This document shows positions 8,226 to 14,658 of a DNA stretch of 35,188 nucleotides, one piece after another. Origin of the DNA: Patescibacteria group bacterium (GTDB lineage Bacteria > Patescibacteriota > Minisyncoccia > Phycocordibacterales > JACOZG01); contig JBBTTW010000035.1 of assembly GCA_038064055.1 (NCBI GenBank), forward strand, positions 1 to 35,188, written 5' to 3'. The first letter of the stretch is position 1. Each line of letters begins with the position of its first letter. The notes beneath the pieces were generated by a model. That model did no database searches. It saw only the letters and a program-made list of their open reading frames with translations, and was not told the DNA's origin. Both the position numbers and the translations under genes were made by a program.

Positions 8226-8948
8226 TTAATCTTCTTGAAAAATCTTGTCCCATACTTGAAATATCGATGCTAATATAATTACCCAGCCGAATAAAAATAA
8301 AAACGCGTTTTTAACATAAATTAACGATTGCCATTTATACCCCTCCTCTCTTTCCATCTTGAATTGAATCTCGGATTTTGAATAAGGTTTTACACTTATT
8401 TTCGTTGTGCCATTTTCCGTTTCTATTTTAGCTTTACCGAAAGGAAGAACGCCTCGTAATTCTATATCATTTCCTAATTCTGCTATAGAACTCTCAGTGC
8501 CAAAGTATTCACATTTTTTGGAATTAAAAGGAACATATATCTCTGAGGATGTTCCTTTATAAAACAAGTTCACTGAAATCGCGCCACCCTCTTCGCCATC
8601 TAAAAAACCTTCAAGATCATATATTCTTTGATCGTCAAAATATGCTTCGCTATTATTGTGTATACACACATATCCAGGCATCGGTTCAGTTTTTATGTTT
8701 AAAAACCTATAAAGCAACGTCGCCCCTAATGCATCAACATTAGTGGTGATGCTAATTTTTTTGGTCCCCAGTGATTTACTCTGCTCTAGCTTAGCTGGAA
8801 TTTTTTTTGAATTCCATGGTGGTGGAGCACCCGGAGAAGCTAGGATAAGCGGTGGTAAAAAAAGAAACAAAACTAGTAGTGCTTTTTTGTGTCTATTTAG
8901 ATAAAATTTTATATTTGAAATTTTAGTTCTTATACTCTGTGAGCTCAT
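8226..8948 (-). CDS. Hypothetical protein with N-terminal TM/signal and C-terminal TM, likely extracytoplasmic domain
   Basis: 240-aa ORF in AT-rich DNA; ALLVLFLFLPPLILA and AFLFLFGWVIILASIF; two Cys. Confidence 0.75.
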   Translation of the reverse strand: MSSQSIRTKISNIKFYLNRHKKALLVLFLFLPPLILASPGAPPPWNSKKIPAKLEQSKSLGTKKISITTNVDALGATLLYRFLNIKTEPMPGYVCIHNNSEAYFDDQRIYDLEGFLDGEEGGAISVNLFYKGTSSEIYVPFNSKKCEYFGTESSIAELGNDIELRGVLPFGKAKIETENGTTKISVKPYSKSEIQFKMEREEGYKWQSLIYVKNAFLFLFGWVIILASIFQVWDKIFQED

Positions 8949-8952
8949 ATTC

Positions 8953-9024
8953 TGACCCCACGGGGAATCGAACCCCGATTTGAAGCTTGAGAAGCTTCCG
9001 TCCTAACCGTTAGACGATAGGGCC
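8953..9024 (-). tRNA. tRNA-Glu (anticodon CTC), CCA not encoded
   Basis: GGCCCTATCGTCTAACGGTTAGGACGGAAGCTTCTCAAGCTTCAAATCGGGGTTCGATTCCCCGTGGGGTCA; anticodon arm GAAGC-TTCTCAA-GCTTC; T-loop TTCGATT. Confidence 0.96.
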
Positions 9025-9083
9025 TAAAACATTTGCATAGCAAATGTTCGGCCGATCATTCGAGTCTCCGAATGATTTAGGCC
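9021..9083 (-). repeat. Three-way-junction palindromic element, copy 1 (tRNA-Glu leader)
   Basis: GGCCTAA-ATCATTCG/CGAATGAT-CGGCCG-AACATTTGC/GCAAATGTT-TTAGGCC on the minus strand. Confidence 0.8.
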
Positions 9084-9089
9084 AGAAAA

Positions 9090-9119
9090 ATCATAGCATT
9101 TTTGGGTGAGTTATGGCAA
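9090..9119 (-). promoter_or_regulatory. Promoter for tRNA-Glu
   Basis: TTGCCA-18 nt-TATGAT with extended TG; predicted +1 near 9083. Confidence 0.65.
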
Positions 9120-9127
9120 CTCATAAA

Positions 9128-9156
9128 TTGACGGATTGGATATAATCTGTTAGTAT
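9128..9156 (+). promoter_or_regulatory. Promoter for two small plus-strand genes
   Basis: TTGACG-17 nt-TAGTAT with extended TG. Confidence 0.6.
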
Positions 9157-9221
9157 CGAATTGGATTGGAATCGCGTGGTTCCAGCATTTGGACTTTGGC
9201 TTAATTAGGGAGAATCGGCCA

Positions 9222-9488
9222 ATGGGTAAGACAAGGAGCATGACTGAGCTGGGCGCCCCGAAGGGAACAATGAGATTTTTGAAACCGAAGGGCGAACTTC
9301 GCCGACTACAAGAGCGGATCGAGGCCCTTGAGGAAGTGGGTGACCGAATCAAATGGTTGCGCAACATCAACACCGAATGCGGCGACCATAAGAGCGAGGC
9401 AGAGCTCGTGTTCGAACAGGCTCTTATCCGAGCCTTCGAGGAGTGGTTGCGCATGGGTCGCTTGTGCGGCATGGTGGTTGAGAAGTAG
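9222..9488 (+). CDS. Hypothetical helical protein (start uncertain: 9222, 9240 or 9270)
   Basis: AGGGAG upstream of ATG 9222; coiled-coil-like LRRLQERIEALEE; lies between a promoter and a terminator. Confidence 0.55.
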   Translation: MGKTRSMTELGAPKGTMRFLKPKGELRRLQERIEALEEVGDRIKWLRNINTECGDHKSEAELVFEQALIRAFEEWLRMGRLCGMVVEK

Positions 9489-9509
9489 AGTTTTTTTGAA
9501 AGGAAGATT

Positions 9510-9689
9510 ATGCCTCCCACTCTTATCGTAGCGTGGCTCTCTGGCGCAGTTGGCACCGGAATCATGGTCGCCGCCGCCCTCACTCCGAATTGGAGTCGGA
9601 AGGGGCAGAAGCAGGAAATGATGCTCTCCCTAGCTGGAATCATCGCCTTTGGCATCACCATTGTCTCAACCCTCCTTATCCCCAAGTAG
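9510..9689 (+). CDS. 59-aa two-TM membrane protein, absent from the ORF track
   Basis: MPPTLIVAWLSGAVGTGIMVAAALTPNWSRKGQKQEMMLSLAGIIAFGITIVSTLLIPK; AAGGAAG upstream; terminator downstream. Confidence 0.7.
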   Translation: MPPTLIVAWLSGAVGTGIMVAAALTPNWSRKGQKQEMMLSLAGIIAFGITIVSTLLIPK

Positions 9690-9715
9690 CGAATTTCGGC
9701 CCGAGTCGGAATTCT

Positions 9716-9752
9716 AACCCCATTCGTCCGCCTGCGGCGGACGAATGGGGTT
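9716..9752. terminator. Strong terminator hairpin between convergent genes
   Basis: 17-bp perfect stem AACCCCATTCGTCCGCC-TGC-GGCGGACGAATGGGGTT followed by TTATTTTTT. Confidence 0.85.
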
Positions 9753-9769
9753 TTATTTTTTAAAAAATT

Positions 9770-11089
9770 TTACCGCTCTTGCCATTCGGCATCTTGGCGA
9801 ACAAGGAGATCGGCCTTGCGCTCCGGCTCGGCCATAATCTCTTCAACTACTTGCTCGAGCCGCATCGATTGCGACCCTTTGATTAAAATTAAGTCCCCCG
9901 CTCCGAGCAGTCGCTCCACCGCGACGCCGGCCGCCGGCGCTTCGTCGAAGTGGTAGAGTCGTTCGGGCGCGAAGCCCTTAGCTCGCGCCGCCTCGCTTAT
10001 AAATTTGGCGCGGATGCCAATCGTGACGATCACGTTCGCCACGGCCGCCGTTTGCTCACCCACGGCCCGATGAGCTTCGATCGTCTTCGCCCCCAGCTCC
10101 ATCATATCGCCCAAGACGGCGATGCGCCGCCCGGCTACATCAATCGCGCGGAGAGTCTCGAGGGCTTCGGCCATCGCCGCCGGCGAAGCATTATAAGTAT
10201 CGTCAAGAATCATCGAACCCTTAACCCCCTTGAGTAAGCGGAGTCGCCCCGCTGGTGGTAGATAGTTGAGTAGCGCTTCGGCCATCTCAATTAAATTGAA
10301 GTCGAGCCCCAGTCCAACCGCCAAGGCTGCCGCGGCGGCGTAGAGTTGAGGCCGGCCCACTTGCTCCGGCAAGCGGAAGGGTACGGTGTGCCCTCCTTCG
10401 TCGAGCTTGAAGGTGAGTCCCATCGGCTTGCCCCCCTCGTAGTAGAGGTGCTCATTATTCAACCGGAGATCATTACTCGGGCCGAAACCGTAAGTGATAA
10501 CTTTAAGAGCTTTGTTCTTAAATTCATTGGCGAAGTTGTCTCGGGCTTCTCTAATCCGCGCGTCATCACCATTCAAAACGACGAGGCCACCGGGTTTAAC
10601 CAAGTGGAGCAAGAGCAACTTCTCGGCGGCGAGCGCCTCCGGTGAAGCGAAGAATTCGAGATGCACGGGTAAGTCCGGCAAACTGGTTAAGACGGCGGCA
10701 TCGAGCTTGAGCCAGCCCGAGAGGCGCTTAATGTCGCCCGGACGATCGACGCCAATCTCAAGCACGAGCCACTCGGGGTAATCGTGGCGGAAGAGAGCGA
10801 GGGCGAGTCCGGCCCCCAGATTGCGGAGCCAGCTCATTGGCCGGCCCCAAGCATTGGGCCGGCCTAAGATCGAGAGTGGTAAGCCGATCTCACTGTTAAA
10901 GCTCTTCTCGCTTCGGCGCACCTTGAGTCGCTCGTTTAAGACCGTGTAGATTGCTTCCTTGGCACTCGTCTTGCCCACATTGCCGGTTATACCGATGATC
11001 CGTGGGCGGTAGCGACGGAGCACTAGCTTCGCCTCGAAGTCGAGGAGGGAAACGAGCAGGCGGCGGGAAGCTTGTTTTAGTAACTTCAT
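9770..11089 (-). CDS. murF: UDP-N-acetylmuramoyl-tripeptide--D-alanyl-D-alanine ligase
   Basis: GITGNVGKTSAK, SFNSEIGLPL, LEIGVDRPGDI, DDTYNASP, VLGDMMELG, IKGSQSMRLE. Confidence 0.95.
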   Translation of the reverse strand: MKLLKQASRRLLVSLLDFEAKLVLRRYRPRIIGITGNVGKTSAKEAIYTVLNERLKVRRSEKSFNSEIGLPLSILGRPNAWGRPMSWLRNLGAGLALALFRHDYPEWLVLEIGVDRPGDIKRLSGWLKLDAAVLTSLPDLPVHLEFFASPEALAAEKLLLLHLVKPGGLVVLNGDDARIREARDNFANEFKNKALKVITYGFGPSNDLRLNNEHLYYEGGKPMGLTFKLDEGGHTVPFRLPEQVGRPQLYAAAAALAVGLGLDFNLIEMAEALLNYLPPAGRLRLLKGVKGSMILDDTYNASPAAMAEALETLRAIDVAGRRIAVLGDMMELGAKTIEAHRAVGEQTAAVANVIVTIGIRAKFISEAARAKGFAPERLYHFDEAPAAGVAVERLLGAGDLILIKGSQSMRLEQVVEEIMAEPERKADLLVRQDAEWQER

Positions 11090-11103
11090 TTTAATTTAAA
11101 TAT

Positions 11104-12810
11104 TTAACGGTCGGGCGGGACTTGGTAATAGTTAAGCAGAAATTTCGCCAAATGACTAAAGGGTTCGGTGAGCGTCTTCGAAGCATACTCCGCTCCGACT
11201 GGCTCGAGATTATAGAGGAAGACGGTGAAGCGCGGCGCCGAAGCGGGGAAATAGCCGAAGAAGGAGTGGAGGAAGCGATCCGGATCGTAGCCCCGACCTG
11301 TCTCAAGCGGCACTTGAGCCGTACCCGTCTTCGCCGCGATGCGGTAATGGGGCAACTTGGCGCGGCCACCATCGAGCGCTTCGTCGACCACGCGCACCAG
11401 CATATCGGTGATGCGTTTCGACGACTCGGGCTTGATTACTTGCCGGCCCTTCTCAACCGGTAGCACTTTCGTCTCACCCGATTCGTATTTAATCGATTGC
11501 ACCAATTGCGGCCGCACCAAGTAACCGCCGTTCGCGAGTACCGAAAGAGCGACGGTAATGTTGAGCGGGGTCATCGCGATCCCTTGGCCGAAAGACATGT
11601 TCGCAAACTCGAGATCATGACCACTCGTTAAGTTGCCAACGAGTCCGGCTTCTTCGTTCGGCAAGTCAACACCGGTGACCGAACCAATGCCGAAAGCTTC
11701 AAGATAGTCGCGGAAGCGCTCCCGACCGAGAGCCTGCATTACGAAGACGGCTCCCGTATTAAGCGATTGGTTGAGCACCTCCTGCATCGGCACCACCCCG
11801 CGCGCCCGCCCGTCGAAGTTGCTGACCACCTTACCATCAAGCGTGAGACTGCCGGCGTCATTGTAAGTCGTCTTCTCCGTCACCACCCCGGCATCAAGAC
11901 CGGAGGCCATGGTAATCGGCTTCATAATCGAGCCCATCTCATAGACCTTCTCCACCAGCGGATTGGTTAAGTTCGCGAGATCGGCTTGCTTGCCCCCCGG
12001 GTTGAAGTCGGGTCGCGCCGCCATCGCGATAACCTTGCCCGTCGCCGGTTCAAGCACAATGCCACCGACTGACTTGCTCTGCCACTTGGTTTTAATCGCT
12101 TCGAGTTCCGCTTCCAGAAATCTTTGGACGGTTGGTTCGATCGTCGTCACGAGATCCCCCGTCTCACTCTCTTCCGCCAACGCTCCCGTGCCACCGGAAA
12201 AGATTTCCGATAAGAAACTGGTGAAGGCGAGTGGTTGTGCCCGGCGTAAAACGAGTTCGTACTCACTCTCAAGACCATAGCGACCGGCAAATTCATCACC
12301 CTTAAAACCCATAAAGCCAAGAATGTGGGAACCGAGATTGCCGCTCGGGTAAGAACGTTGGTGCTCCTCGAGGATCTGGACGCCGATCAGGTTAAGTTGC
12401 TTCACGGCCTTCGCTTCCGCCTCGGTTAAATCTTTCCGCACCTCTTCGTAACGATCATCGGCTCTGGCACTCTGTGCAAAAAATTTCGTCTCATCGAGAT
12501 CGGGAAAAACGGTTTTCAGCCCAGCTAACACTACGTCGGGATTAGTAATCAACCCCGGATCAATAACGAGATCATAATGACTCTCAAGCGTGGCGGCGGC
12601 GGCGAGGGTACCATCTTTCGCCTGCCAGAAGATGCTGCCCCGATTGAAGGTCTGGTTGAAGAGATTCTCATTCTGCTCTTCGGCGGTGGCCCGATACTCC
12701 CCCCCGAAGACGATTTGGATCAAAAAAAGTCTCGTCGCGAGTAATAAACCAACGAGGACAAAGAAGCTGGAGATTAGGTTGAGCCGGCGGGCGGATTGAC
12801 TATTGACCAT
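11104..12810 (-). CDS. ftsI: Class B penicillin-binding protein, division (FtsI/PBP3)
   Basis: N-terminal TM; RGSI, GRYGLE; SIMK, SLN, KTG motifs; dcw position. Confidence 0.9.
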   Translation of the reverse strand: MVNSQSARRLNLISSFFVLVGLLLATRLFLIQIVFGGEYRATAEEQNENLFNQTFNRGSIFWQAKDGTLAAAATLESHYDLVIDPGLITNPDVVLAGLKTVFPDLDETKFFAQSARADDRYEEVRKDLTEAEAKAVKQLNLIGVQILEEHQRSYPSGNLGSHILGFMGFKGDEFAGRYGLESEYELVLRRAQPLAFTSFLSEIFSGGTGALAEESETGDLVTTIEPTVQRFLEAELEAIKTKWQSKSVGGIVLEPATGKVIAMAARPDFNPGGKQADLANLTNPLVEKVYEMGSIMKPITMASGLDAGVVTEKTTYNDAGSLTLDGKVVSNFDGRARGVVPMQEVLNQSLNTGAVFVMQALGRERFRDYLEAFGIGSVTGVDLPNEEAGLVGNLTSGHDLEFANMSFGQGIAMTPLNITVALSVLANGGYLVRPQLVQSIKYESGETKVLPVEKGRQVIKPESSKRITDMLVRVVDEALDGGRAKLPHYRIAAKTGTAQVPLETGRGYDPDRFLHSFFGYFPASAPRFTVFLYNLEPVGAEYASKTLTEPFSHLAKFLLNYYQVPPDR

Positions 12811-13129
12811 GACTCGCCTCCGTCTTCAAAGCCAAGGTCGGCGTCGGAATGAGAGCAAAGGAGGCGTTAAGACCCGCTTCTTCGAAGCCGAGGTTGTAGG
12901 CGAGCTCGATGGTAACCGTCTTCGCTAGGTCAGAGTGGCGGCTCTCGAGTTGGCCGATGGCGAGGCGGAGATCCTCTCGATCATGGAGTAAGCTCTGACG
13001 CTCGGCGGCGTTGAAGATGACGTCGTTAATGAGGAAAACGTAGCTCCCGAGGAGCAGCGCGAGGCCAAGTAAGGCCAGCCAAAAAACCTTCTGGTCAAGC
13101 GATTCAATTTTCAAAACTTTGGTGGTCAT
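12800..13129 (-). CDS. FtsL-like cell division protein
   Basis: 109 aa, one TM plus coiled coil ending AYNLGF; between rsmH and ftsI. Confidence 0.65.
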   Translation of the reverse strand: MTTKVLKIESLDQKVFWLALLGLALLLGSYVFLINDVIFNAAERQSLLHDREDLRLAIGQLESRHSDLAKTVTIELAYNLGFEEAGLNASFALIPTPTLALKTEASHGQ

Positions 13130-14013
13130 AATTTTTTAATGATTCTTAAAGTAGCGCTTCGGGCGCGGGGATTATTTTTAACTTCGGTAAAAGTTGGTTT
13201 GATCGCGTGGCGTGTTAAGATCTCGCCTTCATCATTTGCCGCCAGGTCGCGGAAGAAATTCTTAACCAATCTCGCCTCGCCACTATGGAAAGCGATGACG
13301 GCGAGACGCCCCTCGGGAGCCAAACGTCCCCAAGCCGCCGCGAGTCCGGCCACAATCGCGCCGTACTCATCATTGGTGGCGATCCGCAGCGCTTGGAAGA
13401 TCTTGGTGGCGAAGTGGCGGCGACGCTTGGGGCTCTTGTACCAAGCCGGTACGGCGCTCCGGATCACTTCGACTAGCGCTCCCGTCGTAACGATCGGGCT
13501 CGCGCGTCGCCTAGCGACGATCGCCTTAGCTACGACCTGACTAAACTCCTCCTCGCCGTAAGTTTGGAACATTTCGACGAGCTCTCGCTCGGGCAGTTGA
13601 GCTAGAAGATCGGCCGCGGTGCGGCCCGTTCCTTCCGCCTCGTAAGTCATAAGAAGCGGCTCGTCGGTTTGGAAGGAGAAGCCTCGCCCCGAACCAACTA
13701 ATTGGTCGGAGGAGAAGCCAAGATCAAAGAGCGCGCGGTCGATGGCGGTGACGCCAAGTCTATCTAGCACCGCCTCAAGATCGCGGAAGTTCGCTACCTC
13801 GAAACTGTGCTTCCCTGACACGGCCGCGAGCCGCTCGCGGACTCGGGCCACCGCTTTAGCATCGCGATCGATGGCGATGAGGTGACCTTCCGGAATCGCC
13901 TGCGCGATCGCCTCACTGTGACCACCACCACCGGTCGTAGCATCAAGCACCGTTAATGACGGGGTGAGATCTAAGCCAGCTATTACCGATTGTAAAAGAA
14001 CAGGTTCGTGCAT
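13126..14013 (-). CDS. rsmH: 16S rRNA m4C1402 methyltransferase
   Basis: HEPVLL, DATTGGGGHS, DLGFSSDQL, RGFSF, FQALRIATNDE, FHSGE, NPRARSA. Confidence 0.97.
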   Translation of the reverse strand: MHEPVLLQSVIAGLDLTPSLTVLDATTGGGGHSEAIAQAIPEGHLIAIDRDAKAVARVRERLAAVSGKHSFEVANFRDLEAVLDRLGVTAIDRALFDLGFSSDQLVGSGRGFSFQTDEPLLMTYEAEGTGRTAADLLAQLPERELVEMFQTYGEEEFSQVVAKAIVARRRASPIVTTGALVEVIRSAVPAWYKSPKRRRHFATKIFQALRIATNDEYGAIVAGLAAAWGRLAPEGRLAVIAFHSGEARLVKNFFRDLAANDEGEILTRHAIKPTFTEVKNNPRARSATLRIIKKL

Positions 14014-14022
14014 GGTGCGAGG

Positions 14023-14457
14023 TTAGAAGACGCCAATCTCCCCCAACTTCTCAGCCAAAAGGTCGGCTTGCCGTTCGAGCTTCTTCGTCTCCCCTTGCCA
14101 GCGCTCTTCGTCCCAAATCTCCAGCCGATCATTCACCCCCGTGATCACGACCTTCGTCTTCAACTGGGCGAAACTCTTGAGAAAGTCTGGTAAGAGGATG
14201 CGCCCCATCGCGTCGACGTCCGTTTGGACCGCCCCCGCGAGGAAGAATCGAATGAAGCTCCGCGTATCGGCCTGACCTTGGGCTAAGTGGGACAACTTCT
14301 CCATAATCCCCTGCCACGACTTAACGGTGTAAACAAAGAGGCAGGTATCGAGACCGCGAGTGAGTACCACCTTCCGCCCGAGTAACCGTCGAAACTGAGC
14401 GGGCAGGGCCACCCGTTTCTTCAGATCAATGGCGTGGCGATACTCACCGATTAGCAT
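14023..14457 (-). CDS. mraZ: Transcriptional repressor MraZ
   Basis: MLIGEYRHAIDLKKRVALP, TRGLDTCL, DAMGRILLP, RLEIW. Confidence 0.97.
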   Translation of the reverse strand: MLIGEYRHAIDLKKRVALPAQFRRLLGRKVVLTRGLDTCLFVYTVKSWQGIMEKLSHLAQGQADTRSFIRFFLAGAVQTDVDAMGRILLPDFLKSFAQLKTKVVITGVNDRLEIWDEERWQGETKKLERQADLLAEKLGEIGVF

Positions 14458-14471
14458 AAAATTTTCATCCC

Positions 14472-14524
14472 CTAAATCCGCTTTCGGCGGATCGGGCGAC
14501 CATTTTTGATAAAAAATGGTTTAG
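14472..14524 (-). repeat. Three-way-junction palindromic element, copy 2 (mraZ leader)
   Basis: CTAA-ACCATTTTT/AAAAATGGT-CGCCCG-ATCCGC/GCGGAT-TTAG on the minus strand. Confidence 0.75.
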
Positions 14525-14576
14525 CCACTTCAACCCACTACCATAGAATTATAAACCACTCTCCCCCACCCGCCAA
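14525..14576 (-). promoter_or_regulatory. mraZ promoter with GTGG MraZ-type operator repeats
   Basis: TTGGCG(14571-14576)-17 nt-TATAAT(14548-14553); CCAC on plus at 14525, 14535, 14556, 14566 (10-bp spacing within pairs). Confidence 0.8.
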
Positions 14577-14581
14577 CAAAC

Positions 14582-14590
14582 TTATCCACA
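14582..14590 (+). promoter_or_regulatory. Consensus DnaA box
   Basis: TTATCCACA, 5 bp from the mraZ -35. Confidence 0.55.
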
Positions 14591-14603
14591 GGGATATTTA
14601 AGG

Positions 14604-14629: not shown

Positions 14630-14658
14630 TTGACAAAGAGACTGTTTGGGTGTATAAT
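14630..14658 (+). promoter_or_regulatory. Perfect consensus sigma70 promoter
   Basis: TTGACA-17 nt-TATAAT. Confidence 0.85.

What the first reader, a model, noticed from the sequence alone, without database searches (positions are those of the whole stretch)
9021..14524. Covarying three-way-junction element shared by the tRNA-Glu and mraZ 5' leaders
Seen: two unrelated leaders hold the same 53-57 nt architecture in the same orientation relative to transcription. The tRNA leader (9080-9024) is CUAA-AUCAUUCG(gagacu)CGAAUGAU-CGGCCG-AACAUUUGC(uau)GCAAAUGUU-UUAG. The mraZ leader (14524-14472) is CUAA-ACCAUUUUU(uauc)AAAAAUGGU-CGCCCG-AUCCGC(cgaaa)GCGGAU-UUAG. The closing helix CUAA/UUAG and the 6-nt linker CG(G/C)CCG are conserved. 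Hairpin bases covary (AUCAUU/AAUGAU vs ACCAUU/AAUGGU; AAC/GUU vs AUC/GAU), while distal stems and loops differ in length and sequence. The invariant parts joined together form the near-palindrome CTAAAT-CGSCCG-ATTTAG. Inference: structure is selected over sequence, suggesting an unrecognised cis-regulatory RNA, processing signal, or folded-ssDNA target or miniature mobile element of a HUH or tyrosine recombinase. I do not recognise it as a named family. Two copies is a small sample.
Basis: partly seen in the sequence, partly recalled or inferred. Interest (0 to 1): 0.8.

Follow-up and report, generated by a model that had tools for sequence, protein, structure and literature searches.

The report
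Tiny two-hairpin mobile repeat in CPR
The two look-alike "leaders" are copies of a 45-75-base two-hairpin repeat that has inserted itself many times in this group of tiny-genome bacteria, often at the first bases of tRNA genes, and it seems to carry a two-letter internal copy of its own target.

Summary
In detail: both sites read CTAA-hairpin-CGxyCG-hairpin-TTAG. They are not a leader-specific RNA motif. A covariance model finds 11 loci in this 652-kb genome, and a 12th degenerate copy was seen by eye. It hits 40 of 151 genomes of the order, 14 of 151 of the class, and 0 of 150 others in a phylum-wide sample.

Same-genus genomes have empty sites at the mraZ leader, a tRNA-Glu leader and inside RNase P RNA, so the copies are insertions. 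Copies also abut tRNA or tmRNA 5' ends (21 of 112), sit in Shine-Dalgarno regions, overlap stop codons (rpsI, rplK) and lie in frame inside genes.

Stems are 98.6% Watson-Crick with no G·T excess, so pairing looks DNA-like and strand-symmetric. The "closing helix" shows no covariation. The central two bases of the linker are complementary to a two-base direct repeat flanking the element (306 of 323 ends, four covarying classes).

Best reading: a non-autonomous, REP/BIME- or IS200-like miniature mobile element with a base-paired target "guide". The enzyme is unknown. A RAYT-like Y1 gene co-occurs but is not linked; serine recombinase is excluded for this genome. No Rfam match, and nothing found in print. 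New variant of a known kind.

The parts
9024..9080 (-). Element copy 1. CTAA 9080-9077; hairpin 1 9076-9055; linker CGGCCG 9054-9049; hairpin 2 9048-9028; TTAG 9027-9024.
   Evidence: CM R1 scores 64.2 bits, E = 3.3e-13.
9081..9082 (-). Left flanking dinucleotide GC. It is a direct repeat of 9023-9022 and complementary to the linker centre GC.
9022..9023 (-). Right flanking dinucleotide GC, which is bases 2-3 of tRNA-Glu. With the G of TTAG it rebuilds the tRNA 5' end GGC.
8953..9024 (-). tRNA-Glu(CTC). Its first base is the last base of the element.
   Evidence: ARAGORN; Rfam RF00005, 60.8 bits.
9090..9119 (-). Sigma-70-like promoter TTGCCA-18-TATGAT with a TG extension. It ends 9 nt before the element, so the element would be transcribed as the tRNA leader.
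   Evidence: Consensus scan, 10 of 12. This is a prediction only.
14472..14524 (-). Element copy 2. CTAA 14524-14521; hairpin 1 14520-14499; linker CGCCCG 14498-14493; hairpin 2 14492-14476; TTAG 14475-14472.
   Evidence: CM R1 scores 67.1 bits, E = 6.3e-14. Absent at the same place in 5 of 5 same-genus genomes.
14525..14526 (-). Left flanking GG, complementary to the linker centre CC. It is the end of the last GTGG box.
14470..14471 (-). Right flanking GG. It starts the G-rich stretch GGGGAT, 8 nt before the mraZ ATG, which is a likely Shine-Dalgarno site.
   Evidence: The Shine-Dalgarno role is inferred.
14023..14457 (-). mraZ ORF (144 aa), downstream of copy 2.
Evidence: ORF list. The N-terminus and the 5' DNA are conserved in relatives.
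14548..14576 (-). mraZ promoter TTGGCG-17-TATAAT, 23 nt upstream of copy 2.
   Evidence: Consensus scan, 10 of 12. Conserved in relatives.

Best explanation
Both sites are copies of a small non-autonomous insertion element, 43-76 bp from CTAA to TTAG, that is proper to one class of CPR/Parcubacteria-type bacteria.

**Anatomy.** The element is an inverted doublet of two hairpin units. On either strand each end reads: linker CG-xy-CG, A, a perfect stem-loop of free sequence with a foot close to A-N-C-A, T, TTAG, then a dinucleotide F. F is the reverse complement of xy. The element is therefore flanked by a 2-nt direct repeat (mostly GG, also GC, TG, GA) whose complement sits in the middle of the element.

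**Shown here.**
- It is an insertion, because empty orthologous sites exist.
- It is multi-copy, patchy and forms tandems.
- Removing [CTAA...TTAG+F] restores native tRNA, tmRNA, RNase P and ksgA sequences.
- Its pairing is Watson-Crick only, as expected for DNA hairpins usable on both strands.

**Inferred, about 40% likely as a mechanism.**
- It moves as folded single-stranded DNA.
- The linker centre acts as a guide that base-pairs with the target dinucleotide and with the element's own right end. This places cleavage and joining in the way the guide and cleavage sites of IS200/IS605 ends do.
- An excised circle would fold into a rod: hairpin 1, a 4-bp guide/junction helix flanked by two 1x3 loops, hairpin 2.
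- The enzyme is not identified. A HUH Y1 (RAYT-like) protein is the leading candidate by co-occurrence only.

**In the window.** The tRNA-Glu copy entered after GGC of the tRNA and rebuilt that end. The mraZ copy entered at the GG between the last MraZ box and the ribosome-binding site. Both are simply transcribed as part of the leaders. RNase P (for the tRNA) or tolerance of a longer 5' UTR (for mraZ) makes them harmless.
For: **Copy number and spread**
- 11 loci in G000, plus a degenerate tandem copy.
- 7 of 31 genomes of the family, 40 of 151 of the order and 14 of 151 of the class.
- Only G000 itself among 151 in the phylum sample.
- At least 119 stretches in named Parcubacteria-type MAGs.
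- Up to about 28 loci in one genome, four of them tandem pairs.

**Empty sites**
- mraZ leader: 5 of 5 same-genus genomes lack it.
- RNase P RNA reads GGGTG|AAACGG without interruption in G004 and G001. In G000 and G002 it reads GGGTG[CTAA...TTAG TG]AAACGG.
- The syntenic tRNA-Glu(TTC) leader lacks the hairpins in G001 and G004.

**Flank and linker complementarity**
- 306 of 323 unit ends are complementary.
- The classes are CC/GG, GC/GC (15 ends), CA/TG (the RNase P site in 3 genomes) and TC/GA (4 loci).
- Per copy: 75 CC with GG and GG, 8 GC with GC and GC.

**DNA-like pairing**
- 1630 of 1653 stem pairs are Watson-Crick. There are 6 G·T, 9 A·C and 8 other mismatches.
- Both strands fold equally well.

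**Restored sequences**
- The reconstructed empty sites give correct tRNA and tmRNA 5' ends.
- They also give ksgA starting M-L-A-K-K-S-L-G-Q-N.

**Candidate enzyme**
- A Y1_Tnp gene is present in G000.
- It is found in 34 of 40 element-bearing genomes against 53 of 111 others. The odds ratio is 6.2 and p = 3e-5, not corrected for phylogeny.

**Precedent**
- IS608 reads its target by base pairing to a guide next to the hairpin foot (PMC3201880 and PMC5934647, abstracts in the listing).
Against: **The enzyme link is weak**
- No copy lies within 1.5 kb of any of 8 Y1 genes examined.
- Seven of those 8 genes (one in G000, four in G167, one of the two in G089, and G064 on its downstream side only) sit next to their own, different palindromes.
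- G152 is 97% complete and holds at least 5 perfect copies, yet no Y1 match was found.

**The geometry differs from IS608**
- There is one guide between the two hairpins instead of one guide 5' of each.
- The left boundary is only 4 nt from hairpin 1.

**Hairpin sequences are free**
- 66 different 7-mers start 100 first hairpins. A hairpin-specific transposase would not be expected to accept that.

**Persistence is not explained**
- Copies at the same site in G000 and G002 (tmRNA, RNase P RNA) keep perfect but different hairpins, although the two genomes are only about 70% identical in mraZ DNA. This needs turnover, conversion or selection for pairing, none of which is shown.

**Site choice is not explained by a 2-nt target**
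- 21 of 112 copies abut tRNA or tmRNA 5' ends. Only 0.27% of candidate dinucleotide sites outside long ORFs lie there.

**Other limits**
- No excision product, circle or recent identical copies were seen.
- The direction of causality (guide chooses target, or target is copied into the linker) is not settled.
Confidence: 0.7

Rival explanations
1. The element is a selected structured RNA, for example a 5' leader or stabiliser, a processing signal, or a self-contained folding module. It has been recruited repeatedly, and the linker-flank pairing is an RNA helix or pseudoknot.
For: - All placed copies lie in transcribed regions.
- Both window copies lie downstream of promoter-like sites.
- Stems stay perfect even in old orthologous copies.
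- The minimum-energy RNA fold pairs the 5' flank plus C with the linker.
- Copies are tolerated inside RNase P RNA in at least 5 genomes. This would be helped by a compact fold that brings its two ends together.
Against: - G·U pairs are almost absent: 6 of 1653, fewer than A·C.
- The element scores and folds on both strands.
- It occurs in either orientation relative to tRNA genes, including 2 copies at tRNA 3' ends.
- It lies over stop codons and in frame within ORFs.
- It is absent from the orthologous mraZ leader in 5 of 5 close relatives.
- It is absent from 111 of 151 genomes of the order.
- The closing helix shows no covariation.
- No Rfam family matches at E <= 1.
Confidence: 0.12
2. 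The element is a double-stranded mobile element moved by a site-specific recombinase with a 2-bp overlap (IS607-like serine transposase). The circle junction TTAG-F-CTAA would be an inverted-repeat crossover site that recombines with any matching dinucleotide.
For: - The flanking dinucleotides are identical, mostly GG.
- The junction would be two inverted half-sites around a central dinucleotide.
- IS607 is described as joining its ends through a GG overlap and inserting at a matching dinucleotide with little other specificity (PMC4058570, passages read).
- One copy has GA on both flanks although the linker centre is CC. That looks like a copied target rather than a guided one.
Against: - No Resolvase-domain match in G000, which is 100% complete and has 12 copies, nor in G167.
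- There is no association: 23 of 40 element-bearing genomes against 70 of 111 others, odds ratio 0.79, p = 0.57.
- It does not explain why the linker centre is the complement of the overlap.
- It does not explain why perfect hairpins are kept.
Confidence: 0.08
3. The element is a classical DDE-type MITE with a TA target duplication (C-TA-[element]-TA-G, IS630/mariner-like), or a plain protein-binding palindrome or terminator.
For: - The ends read CTA...TAG.
- 8 of 100 copies have CTAG at one end.
- The element is short and multi-copy.
Against: - A TA-duplication model predicts CTAG at empty sites. The empty sites read GGGTGAAACGG in RNase P RNA and AAGTGGG(G/T) at mraZ.
- It leaves the GG, GC and TG flanks and the linker complementarity unexplained.
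- The terminator scan finds none at either copy.
Confidence: 0.03

Closest known systems
REP / BIME / REPIN elements with RAYT (Y1 HUH) transposases
   Same: - The unit is a conserved tetranucleotide next to a palindrome of variable composition.
- Units lie as close inverted doublets separated by a short linker.
- They are multi-copy, mostly outside genes and vertically persistent.
- A single-copy Y1 gene is present in the genome.

Sources: the REP definition from passages of PMC3686654; BIME from the abstract of PMC3333891 (listing).
   Different: - The tetranucleotide is CTAA/TTAG, not GT(A/G)G.
- The two hairpins of a doublet are unrelated in sequence, so they do not pair with each other.
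- Hairpin sequence is free even within one genome.
- The Y1 genes are flanked by other palindromes, not by this element.
- I did not find the flank and linker-centre complementarity in the REP passages and abstracts I read.
IS200/IS605 ends and their hairpin-only derivatives (single-strand 'peel and paste' transposition)
   Same: - Subterminal hairpins instead of long terminal inverted repeats.
- The target and cleavage sites are read by base pairing with a short guide next to the hairpin foot.
- The target can be reprogrammed by changing the guide.

Sources: abstracts of PMC3201880, PMC5934647 and PMC5027513 in the listing.
   Different: - The guide is 2-4 nt and single, lying between the two hairpins.
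- The element is 2-fold pseudo-symmetric and usable on both strands.
- It is flanked by identical dinucleotides.
- No transposase gene with these ends was found.
Rickettsia palindromic elements (RPE) and other MITE-like repeats of reduced genomes
   Same: - Small palindromic repeats in tiny genomes insert in frame into ORFs and are tolerated (passages of PMC10969869).
- Earlier notes of this scan report other hairpin repeats inside CPR RNase P RNA genes and in-frame in CPR genes.
   Different: - This is an unrelated sequence family and much shorter (about 55 bp against about 150 bp).
- It has a two-hairpin core with a conserved linker.
- It strongly prefers tRNA and tmRNA 5' ends.
- It shows flank and linker complementarity.
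IS607-family serine transposons
   Same: GG overlap dinucleotide at both junctions and minimal other target specificity (PMC4058570).
   Different: - No serine recombinase in G000.
- IS607 has no such hairpins.
- The abstract of PMC6188088 (listing) says the IS607 family has no terminal inverted repeats or target duplications.

Membership tests
Rfam RNA families (any) | Covariance-model match at or near the gathering score | tested here: not met
   Only tRNA, tmRNA and RNase P RNA match in the window and 25 loci. Nothing lies on the element at E <= 1.
REP/REPIN-RAYT | 5' conserved tetranucleotide GT(A/G)G followed by a palindrome | tested here: not met
   The conserved tetranucleotide is CTAA in 88 of 100 copies, and TTAG on the other arm in 92 of 100. 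The grammar is the same but the letters differ. Definition from PMC3686654.
REP/REPIN-RAYT | Two units in close inverted orientation | tested here: met
   Both ends read linker, hairpin, TTAG, F on their own strand.
REP/REPIN-RAYT | Cognate RAYT gene flanked by the same REPs | tested here: not met
   There is no model hit within 1.5 kb of 8 Y1 genes. Their flanks carry other palindromes.
IS200/IS605-derived element | Subterminal hairpins at both ends | tested here: met
   177 of 200 hairpins are perfect, with a mean stem of 8.3 bp.
IS200/IS605-derived element | Target or cleavage site complementary to a guide beside the hairpin foot | tested here: inconclusive
   Complementarity is present in 306 of 323 ends. 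However it spans only 2-4 nt, there is a single guide, and the geometry differs. No biochemical test was possible.
IS200/IS605-derived element | Y1 HUH transposase available in the genome | tested here: inconclusive
   Present in G000 (Pfam 31.5 bits against a cut-off of 23; NCBIfam REP_Tyr_transpos 39.7 bits, below its cut-off of 80). Present in 34 of 40 carriers. Not found in G152, G017, G058, G079, G111 or G119.
IS607-like serine transposon | Serine recombinase (Resolvase domain) gene | tested here: not met
   No match in G000 or G167, and no association.
Classical MITE (DDE parent) | Terminal inverted repeats plus a fixed-length target duplication, and a parental IS with the same ends | tested here: inconclusive
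   The terminal repeat is only 4-5 nt. A 2-nt flanking repeat is present. A parental IS was not searched for systematically.
Integron attC site | Conserved core and inverse-core sites, an integrase, and cassette arrays | not tested
   The GC-type ends loosely resemble the attC core sites as I recall them. There are no ORF cassettes between copies. No integrase search was run.

The most novel reading that the evidence does not exclude
This is a minimal self-guided transposon. About 55 bp of DNA hold only two structural hairpins and a symmetric core. Their 2-4-nt central guide base-pairs with the target and with the element's own junction, so a change of the guide (CC to GC, CA or TC) retargets insertion (GG to GC, TG or GA). 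It would be mobilised in trans as a folded single-strand rod by a still unidentified, class-wide enzyme. It is drawn to the single-stranded starts of highly transcribed RNA genes, namely tRNA, tmRNA and RNase P RNA.
Probability: 0.3. Interest if true: 0.8.

Novelty: new variant of a known kind. Interest (0 to 1): 0.6.

Why it matters
- **Annotation.** Dozens of "conserved structured leaders" in front of tRNA, tmRNA and ribosomal-protein genes of Parcubacteria-type genomes are one insertion element. The same holds for the extra helices that enlarge their RNase P RNAs from about 310-330 nt to 400-585 nt.
- **Mobile DNA.** An element this small, with free hairpin sequence, a core conserved across a bacterial class, and an internal complement of its flanking dinucleotide, would be the shortest case of base-pair-programmed target choice. 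It gives a testable rule: change the two central bases and the target changes.
- **CPR biology.** Even 0.6-Mb genomes carry active or recently active selfish DNA. This DNA is tolerated because it rebuilds the sequence it interrupts, such as tRNA 5' ends, ribosome-binding sites and stop codons.

Tried and rejected
- **Rfam.** Searched at gathering and at E <= 1. No family lies on the element.
- **Terminator reading.** No terminator-like site at either copy.
- **TA-duplication (IS630-like) reading.** Contradicted by the empty sites.
- **Serine recombinase.** None in G000 and no association.
- **Element copies beside Y1 genes.** None found with filters off.
- **Hairpin arms copied from the target.** I considered this because of the rpsI copy. 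The mraZ and tRNA-Glu copies checked by eye do not show it.
- **G002:C2 as the ksgA orthologue of G000:C1.** This early assumption was wrong. Its downstream sequence is not ksgA.
- **'Solo' single-hairpin units.** My strict scan mostly returned doublets with one imperfect hairpin. One clear single-hairpin derivative was seen (L083 545-590).
- **PDB sequence search with the Y1 protein.** Nothing below E = 0.5.
- **RNA runs.** 11 runs hold at most 0.15 of the sampled words of window 8900-9300, probably only the conserved tRNA. I did not lay reads, so there is no expression evidence either way.
- **Earlier findings of the scan.** Nothing by sequence. By words, other CPR hairpin-repeat families turned up.
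- **Literature.** No paper joins REPIN or RAYT with Patescibacteria among the 12 listed of 62. No relevant paper covers Parcubacteria with MITEs or CPR with REP. Supplements were not available.
- **Not done.** No structure prediction or complex prediction was run.

Full report
**1. Observation**

On the minus strand, window 9080-9024 reads CTAA, a 22-nt hairpin, CGGCCG, a 21-nt hairpin, TTAG. Window 14524-14472 reads CTAA, a 22-nt hairpin, CGCCCG, a 17-nt hairpin, TTAG. The first ends on base 1 of tRNA-Glu(CTC), 8953-9024. The second ends 14 nt before the mraZ ATG.

A descriptor of the conserved parts hits only these two loci in the window. 0.04 matches are expected, and 0 of 100 shuffles reach the observed number. 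Both sequences fold better than their shuffles, equally on both strands, with z from -3.4 to -5.0. Promoter-like sites lie 9 nt (tRNA) and 23 nt (mraZ) upstream, so both copies should be transcribed as leaders.

**2. The motif is not special to these leaders**

Simple descriptors found the same architecture elsewhere in the 652-kb genome G000. I built a covariance model, R1, from 15 copies.

| Sample | Genomes with a match | Threshold |
|---|---|---|
| G000 itself | 11 loci, 7 of them scoring on both strands | E <= 1 |
| Family | 7 of 31 | E <= 0.001 |
| Order | 40 of 151 | E <= 1e-4 |
| Class | 14 of 151 | E <= 1e-6 |
| Phylum-wide sample | only G000 among 151 | E <= 1e-6 |

- A 12th, degenerate copy lies directly upstream of the tmRNA copy.
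- In the family search, four of five same-genus genomes had no match.
- In the large searches only 33 candidates per genome were scored, so those counts are lower bounds.
- Copy number runs from 1 to about 28 loci. G064 has the most, including four tandem pairs.
Nearly all are in MAGs titled Parcubacteria group, Paceibacterota, Nomura-, Wolfe-, Lloyd-, Jorgensen-, Zambryski-, Vogel-, Kaiser-, Taylor-, Lipton- or Harrisonbacteria, Minisyncoccia, or "uncultured Candidatus Saccharibacteria". Three odd labels may be mis-binned.
- No Rfam family matches the element, even at E <= 1.

**3. The copies are insertions**

- **mraZ leader.** In all 5 same-genus genomes, the conserved promoter and GTGG boxes run straight into the mraZ start region. 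They read ...AAGTGG|GG..., where G000 has AAGTGG[CTAA...TTTAG]GGGATG.
- **RNase P RNA.** The RNase P RNA gene of G000 (C2:1959-2364, E = 2.6e-22) contains a copy.
  - In the alignment of five same-genus genes, G004 and G001 read GGGTGAAACGG without interruption.
  - G000 and G002 read GGGTG[CTAA...TTAG TG]AAACGG. This is a 2-nt repeat, exactly as predicted from the flanks.
- **tRNA-Glu(TTC).** The syntenic leader in G001 and G004 lacks the two hairpins. G004's leader ends in TTTTAG, which may be a scar.

**4. Anatomy on a large sample**

From 113 distinct model hits in the fetched loci, 112 parsed and 100 parsed well.

- **Ends.** CTAA in 88 of 100 and TTAG in 92 of 100.
- **Linker.** CGCCCG in 77 and CGGCCG in 10, with a few variants.
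- **Hairpin foot.** Both hairpins start A (93 and 95), N, C (86 and 84), A (68 and 51). Beyond that the sequence is free: 66 and 70 different first 7-mers.
- **Length.** 43-76 bp.
- **Stems.**
  - 177 of 200 are perfect and 1630 of 1653 pairs are Watson-Crick. There are only 6 G·T, against 9 A·C and 8 other mismatches.
  - With 3' arms dealt to other copies, 52.8% pair (maximum 56.8% in 500 shuffles) against 97.1% observed. For positions 5-8 the figures are 39.9% against 94.5%.
The lack of wobble pairs and the strand symmetry point to DNA-level pairing, or pairing on both strands, not to an RNA-only structure.
- **Closing helix.** It is conserved sequence. Of 20 changed cells, 1 is compensated, 7 are G·T and 12 are broken. 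The minimum-energy fold does not form it; it pairs the 5' flank plus C with the linker instead.

**5. The key regularity**

The two bases in the middle of the linker (xy in CG-xy-CG) are the reverse complement of the dinucleotide F on both sides of the element.

- **Per copy.**
  - CC with GG and GG: 75.
  - GC with GC and GC: 8.
  - TG with CA and CA: 2.
  - CA with TG and TG: 1.
  - 14 copies have one mismatching, unknown or mutated member.
- **Per unit end.** In 1.89 Mb of held sequence, 306 of 323 distinct unit ends are complementary.

| Linker centre / flank | Unit ends or loci |
|---|---|
| CC/GG and GG/CC | 281 ends |
| GC/GC | 15 ends |
| CA/TG and TG/CA | 6 ends (the RNase P site in three genomes) |
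| TC/GA and GA/TC | 4 ends, at four loci |

- **Detection bias.** The model's flank columns favour GG, so the GC, TG and GA classes cannot be an artefact of detection.
- **Extended pairing.** With the neighbouring bases, the left junction (F1 F2 C) and the right junction (G F1 F2) can each make 3 pairs with the linker. A joined junction (G F1 F2 C) could make 4.

**6. Removing [CTAA...TTAG+F] restores native sequence**

- tRNA genes start correctly. In G000:C4, for example, the tRNA-Ala 5' end is rebuilt from the left GG plus the downstream sequence. tRNA-Glu is rebuilt as GGC|CC in G000, and as GG|CC in four other genomes.
- tmRNA starts with its four Gs.
- RNase P RNA regains GGGTGAAACGG.
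- ksgA in G000:C1 then starts M-L-A-K-K-S-L-G-Q-N. With the element present it carries 21 extra in-frame residues after codon 2.
- The second tmRNA copy sits exactly after the GG that ends the first. This explains the tandem arrays.

**7. Where the copies sit**

- 16 of 112 have a tRNA or tmRNA 5' end within 1 nt of their 3' end.
- 5 more abut a tRNA 5' end on the other side. These are tRNAs that start G-CC, or copies with the palindromic GC linker.
- 2 abut tRNA 3' ends.
- In G000 only 41 of 15,090 GG, CC or GC sites outside ORFs of 100 aa or more lie in the first 4 nt of the 39 tRNA and tmRNA genes, which is 0.27%. The preference or tolerance for RNA-gene starts is therefore strong, about 70-fold, and a 2-nt target does not explain it.
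- Many other reconstructed sites look like ribosome-binding sites, for example aagg|ag and ggagg|ag.
- RNase P RNA genes carry one or two copies in G000, G002, G071, G075 (two copies, gene match 585 nt) and G125 (in the 5' part of the gene). Relatives without copies have genes of 311-332 nt.
- In G000 the C5 and C38 copies supply the stop codons of rpsI and rplK. The C1 copy supplies the stop of the upstream helicase-like ORF. The C10 copy (58+2 nt) lies in frame in a 1570-aa ORF.

**8. Mechanism**

- **Shown.** Insertion; a 2-nt flanking repeat; complementarity with the linker centre; DNA-like hairpins; tandem insertion into the element's own right end.
- **Inferred.** The linker centre acts as a guide that pairs with the target dinucleotide and with the element's right end in single-stranded DNA. 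IS608 reads its cleavage and target sites through guides next to its hairpin feet in this way (abstracts of PMC3201880 and PMC5934647, listing). An excised single-strand circle would fold into a symmetric rod: two hairpins joined by a 4-bp guide/junction helix between two 1x3 loops. That would explain why only the core and "any perfect stem" are conserved.
- **Speculation on site choice.** Single-stranded DNA at the starts of heavily transcribed genes could explain the bias to tRNA, tmRNA and RNase P RNA genes and to 5' UTRs.
- **Enzyme.**
  - G000 has one Y1_Tnp gene (C46:25172-25819, 216 aa). It carries an HFH stretch and a YIHLNP stretch that I take, from memory of these families, to be the HUH and catalytic-tyrosine motifs. 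It scores Pfam 31.5 bits and NCBIfam REP_Tyr_transpos 39.7 bits, below that cut-off.
  - Homologues occur in 34 of 40 element-bearing genomes against 53 of 111 others in the same order sample. The odds ratio is 6.2 and p = 3e-5, uncorrected for relatedness.
  - The link is only correlative. No copy lies near 8 Y1 genes. Seven of the 8 sit next to their own, different palindromes. G152 has at least 5 perfect copies and no Y1 match.
- **Serine recombinase alternative.** It is suggested by IS607's GG overlap (PMC4058570). It fails because G000 has no Resolvase-domain match and there is no association: 23 of 40 against 70 of 111.

**9. What remains unexplained**

- Copies at the same sites in G000 and G002 (tmRNA, RNase P RNA) have perfect but largely different hairpins, although neutral sites between these genomes must be saturated; mraZ DNA is about 70% identical. 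Either sites are re-used, or hairpins are kept paired by repair within the hairpin or by selection. This is the best argument for some host- or RNA-level constraint, and it keeps the RNA rival alive.
- The direction of causality is not settled: the guide may choose the target, or the target may be copied into the linker. AT-rich dinucleotides are never seen as flanks, which favours a G/C-reading guide. One copy with GA on both flanks and CC in the linker favours copying.

**10. Comparison and novelty**

- **Grammar.** It is that of REP/BIME/REPIN elements: a tetranucleotide plus a palindrome, in inverted doublets with a short linker (PMC3686654, passages; PMC3333891, abstract).
- **Guide logic.** It is that of IS200/IS605.
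- **Behaviour.** In-frame and RNA-gene insertions in a reduced genome match Rickettsia palindromic elements (PMC10969869, passages). They also match other hairpin repeats that earlier notes of this scan found in CPR RNase P RNA genes. Those are different sequence families; a look-up by sequence found nothing.
- **Membership.** It fails the letter of each family test (see the membership table).
- **Literature.** My searches found no description of this element. Supplements could not be read.
- **Rating.** I rate it a new variant of a known kind.

**11. Verdict**

| Question | Answer |
|---|---|
| Observation | Confirmed |
| First interpretation | Partly supported: the mobile-element or ssDNA option, not the regulatory-RNA option |
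| Confidence that it is an insertion element of this anatomy | About 0.85 |
| Confidence that it uses a base-paired guide on single-stranded DNA | About 0.4 |
| Confidence that a Y1 enzyme moves it | About 0.25 |
| Interest | 0.6 |

Noticed in passing
window 14525-14594 (minus strand): Four or five GTGG(G) boxes at roughly 10-nt spacing overlap the mraZ promoter (TTGGCG-17-TATAAT). They are conserved in all five same-genus genomes. They look like MraZ operator boxes; this is recalled and not tested.
   Followed up: partly
window 14630-14658 (plus strand): A perfect 12-of-12 sigma-70 consensus promoter (TTGACA-17-TATAAT) points away from mraZ, just upstream of the mraZ promoter region.
   Followed up: no
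G000 C46:25172-25819 and flanks (L109 1100-2060): A single RAYT-like Y1 gene (216 aa) is flanked on both sides by its own palindromes of the type CAAAGGGTCGACC(C)TTTG. Upstream lies a GTAG-type palindrome, read on the other strand.
   Followed up: partly
G000 C8:9335, C19:1482 and 4307, C31:5409, C34:11940, C46:25101, C50:1149: A second, unrelated repeat family of about 44 bp has 7 copies. Each contains the palindrome AAGGGT(C/G)ACCCTT next to CTAC/GTAG. One copy lies directly upstream of the Y1 gene, so this family is more likely that gene's own REP.
   Followed up: partly
G000 C5:6597-6680 (L025 about 1998-2075): The last codons and the stop of rpsI (S-K-R-stop) are encoded by the left end of the element. 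A near-identical relic of them (13 of 14 nt) lies right after the element's right end. The native site resembled the element's own left end.
   Followed up: partly
G000 C22:3478-3606; G002 C11:6650-6791 (L020 1435-1564): There are tandem pairs of the element in front of tmRNA in two species. The first copy ends TTTTATGG instead of TTTTAGGG in both.
   Followed up: yes
RNase P RNA genes: L176, L177, L178, L179, L180, L089, L098, L164: Gene-match length varies from 311 to 585 nt within one order. Much of the excess is copies of this element. G000 and G002 also share another expansion not present in G004 or G001.
   Followed up: partly
G000 C27:455-857: The C27 copy lies just upstream of a small ORF whose N-terminus (MAFIYILKNN...GGYYIG) looks GIY-YIG-like to me. 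No family search was run.
   Followed up: no
L083 545-590 (G089): This is a single-hairpin derivative: CTAA, a hairpin, CGCC, then TTAA and GG. It is either a deletion product or a solo unit.
   Followed up: no
L213, L214, L215: Exact-pattern hits lie on contigs titled Micrarchaeota archaeon, Elusimicrobia and Opitutales. They are probably mis-binned CPR contigs; this was not checked.
   Followed up: no
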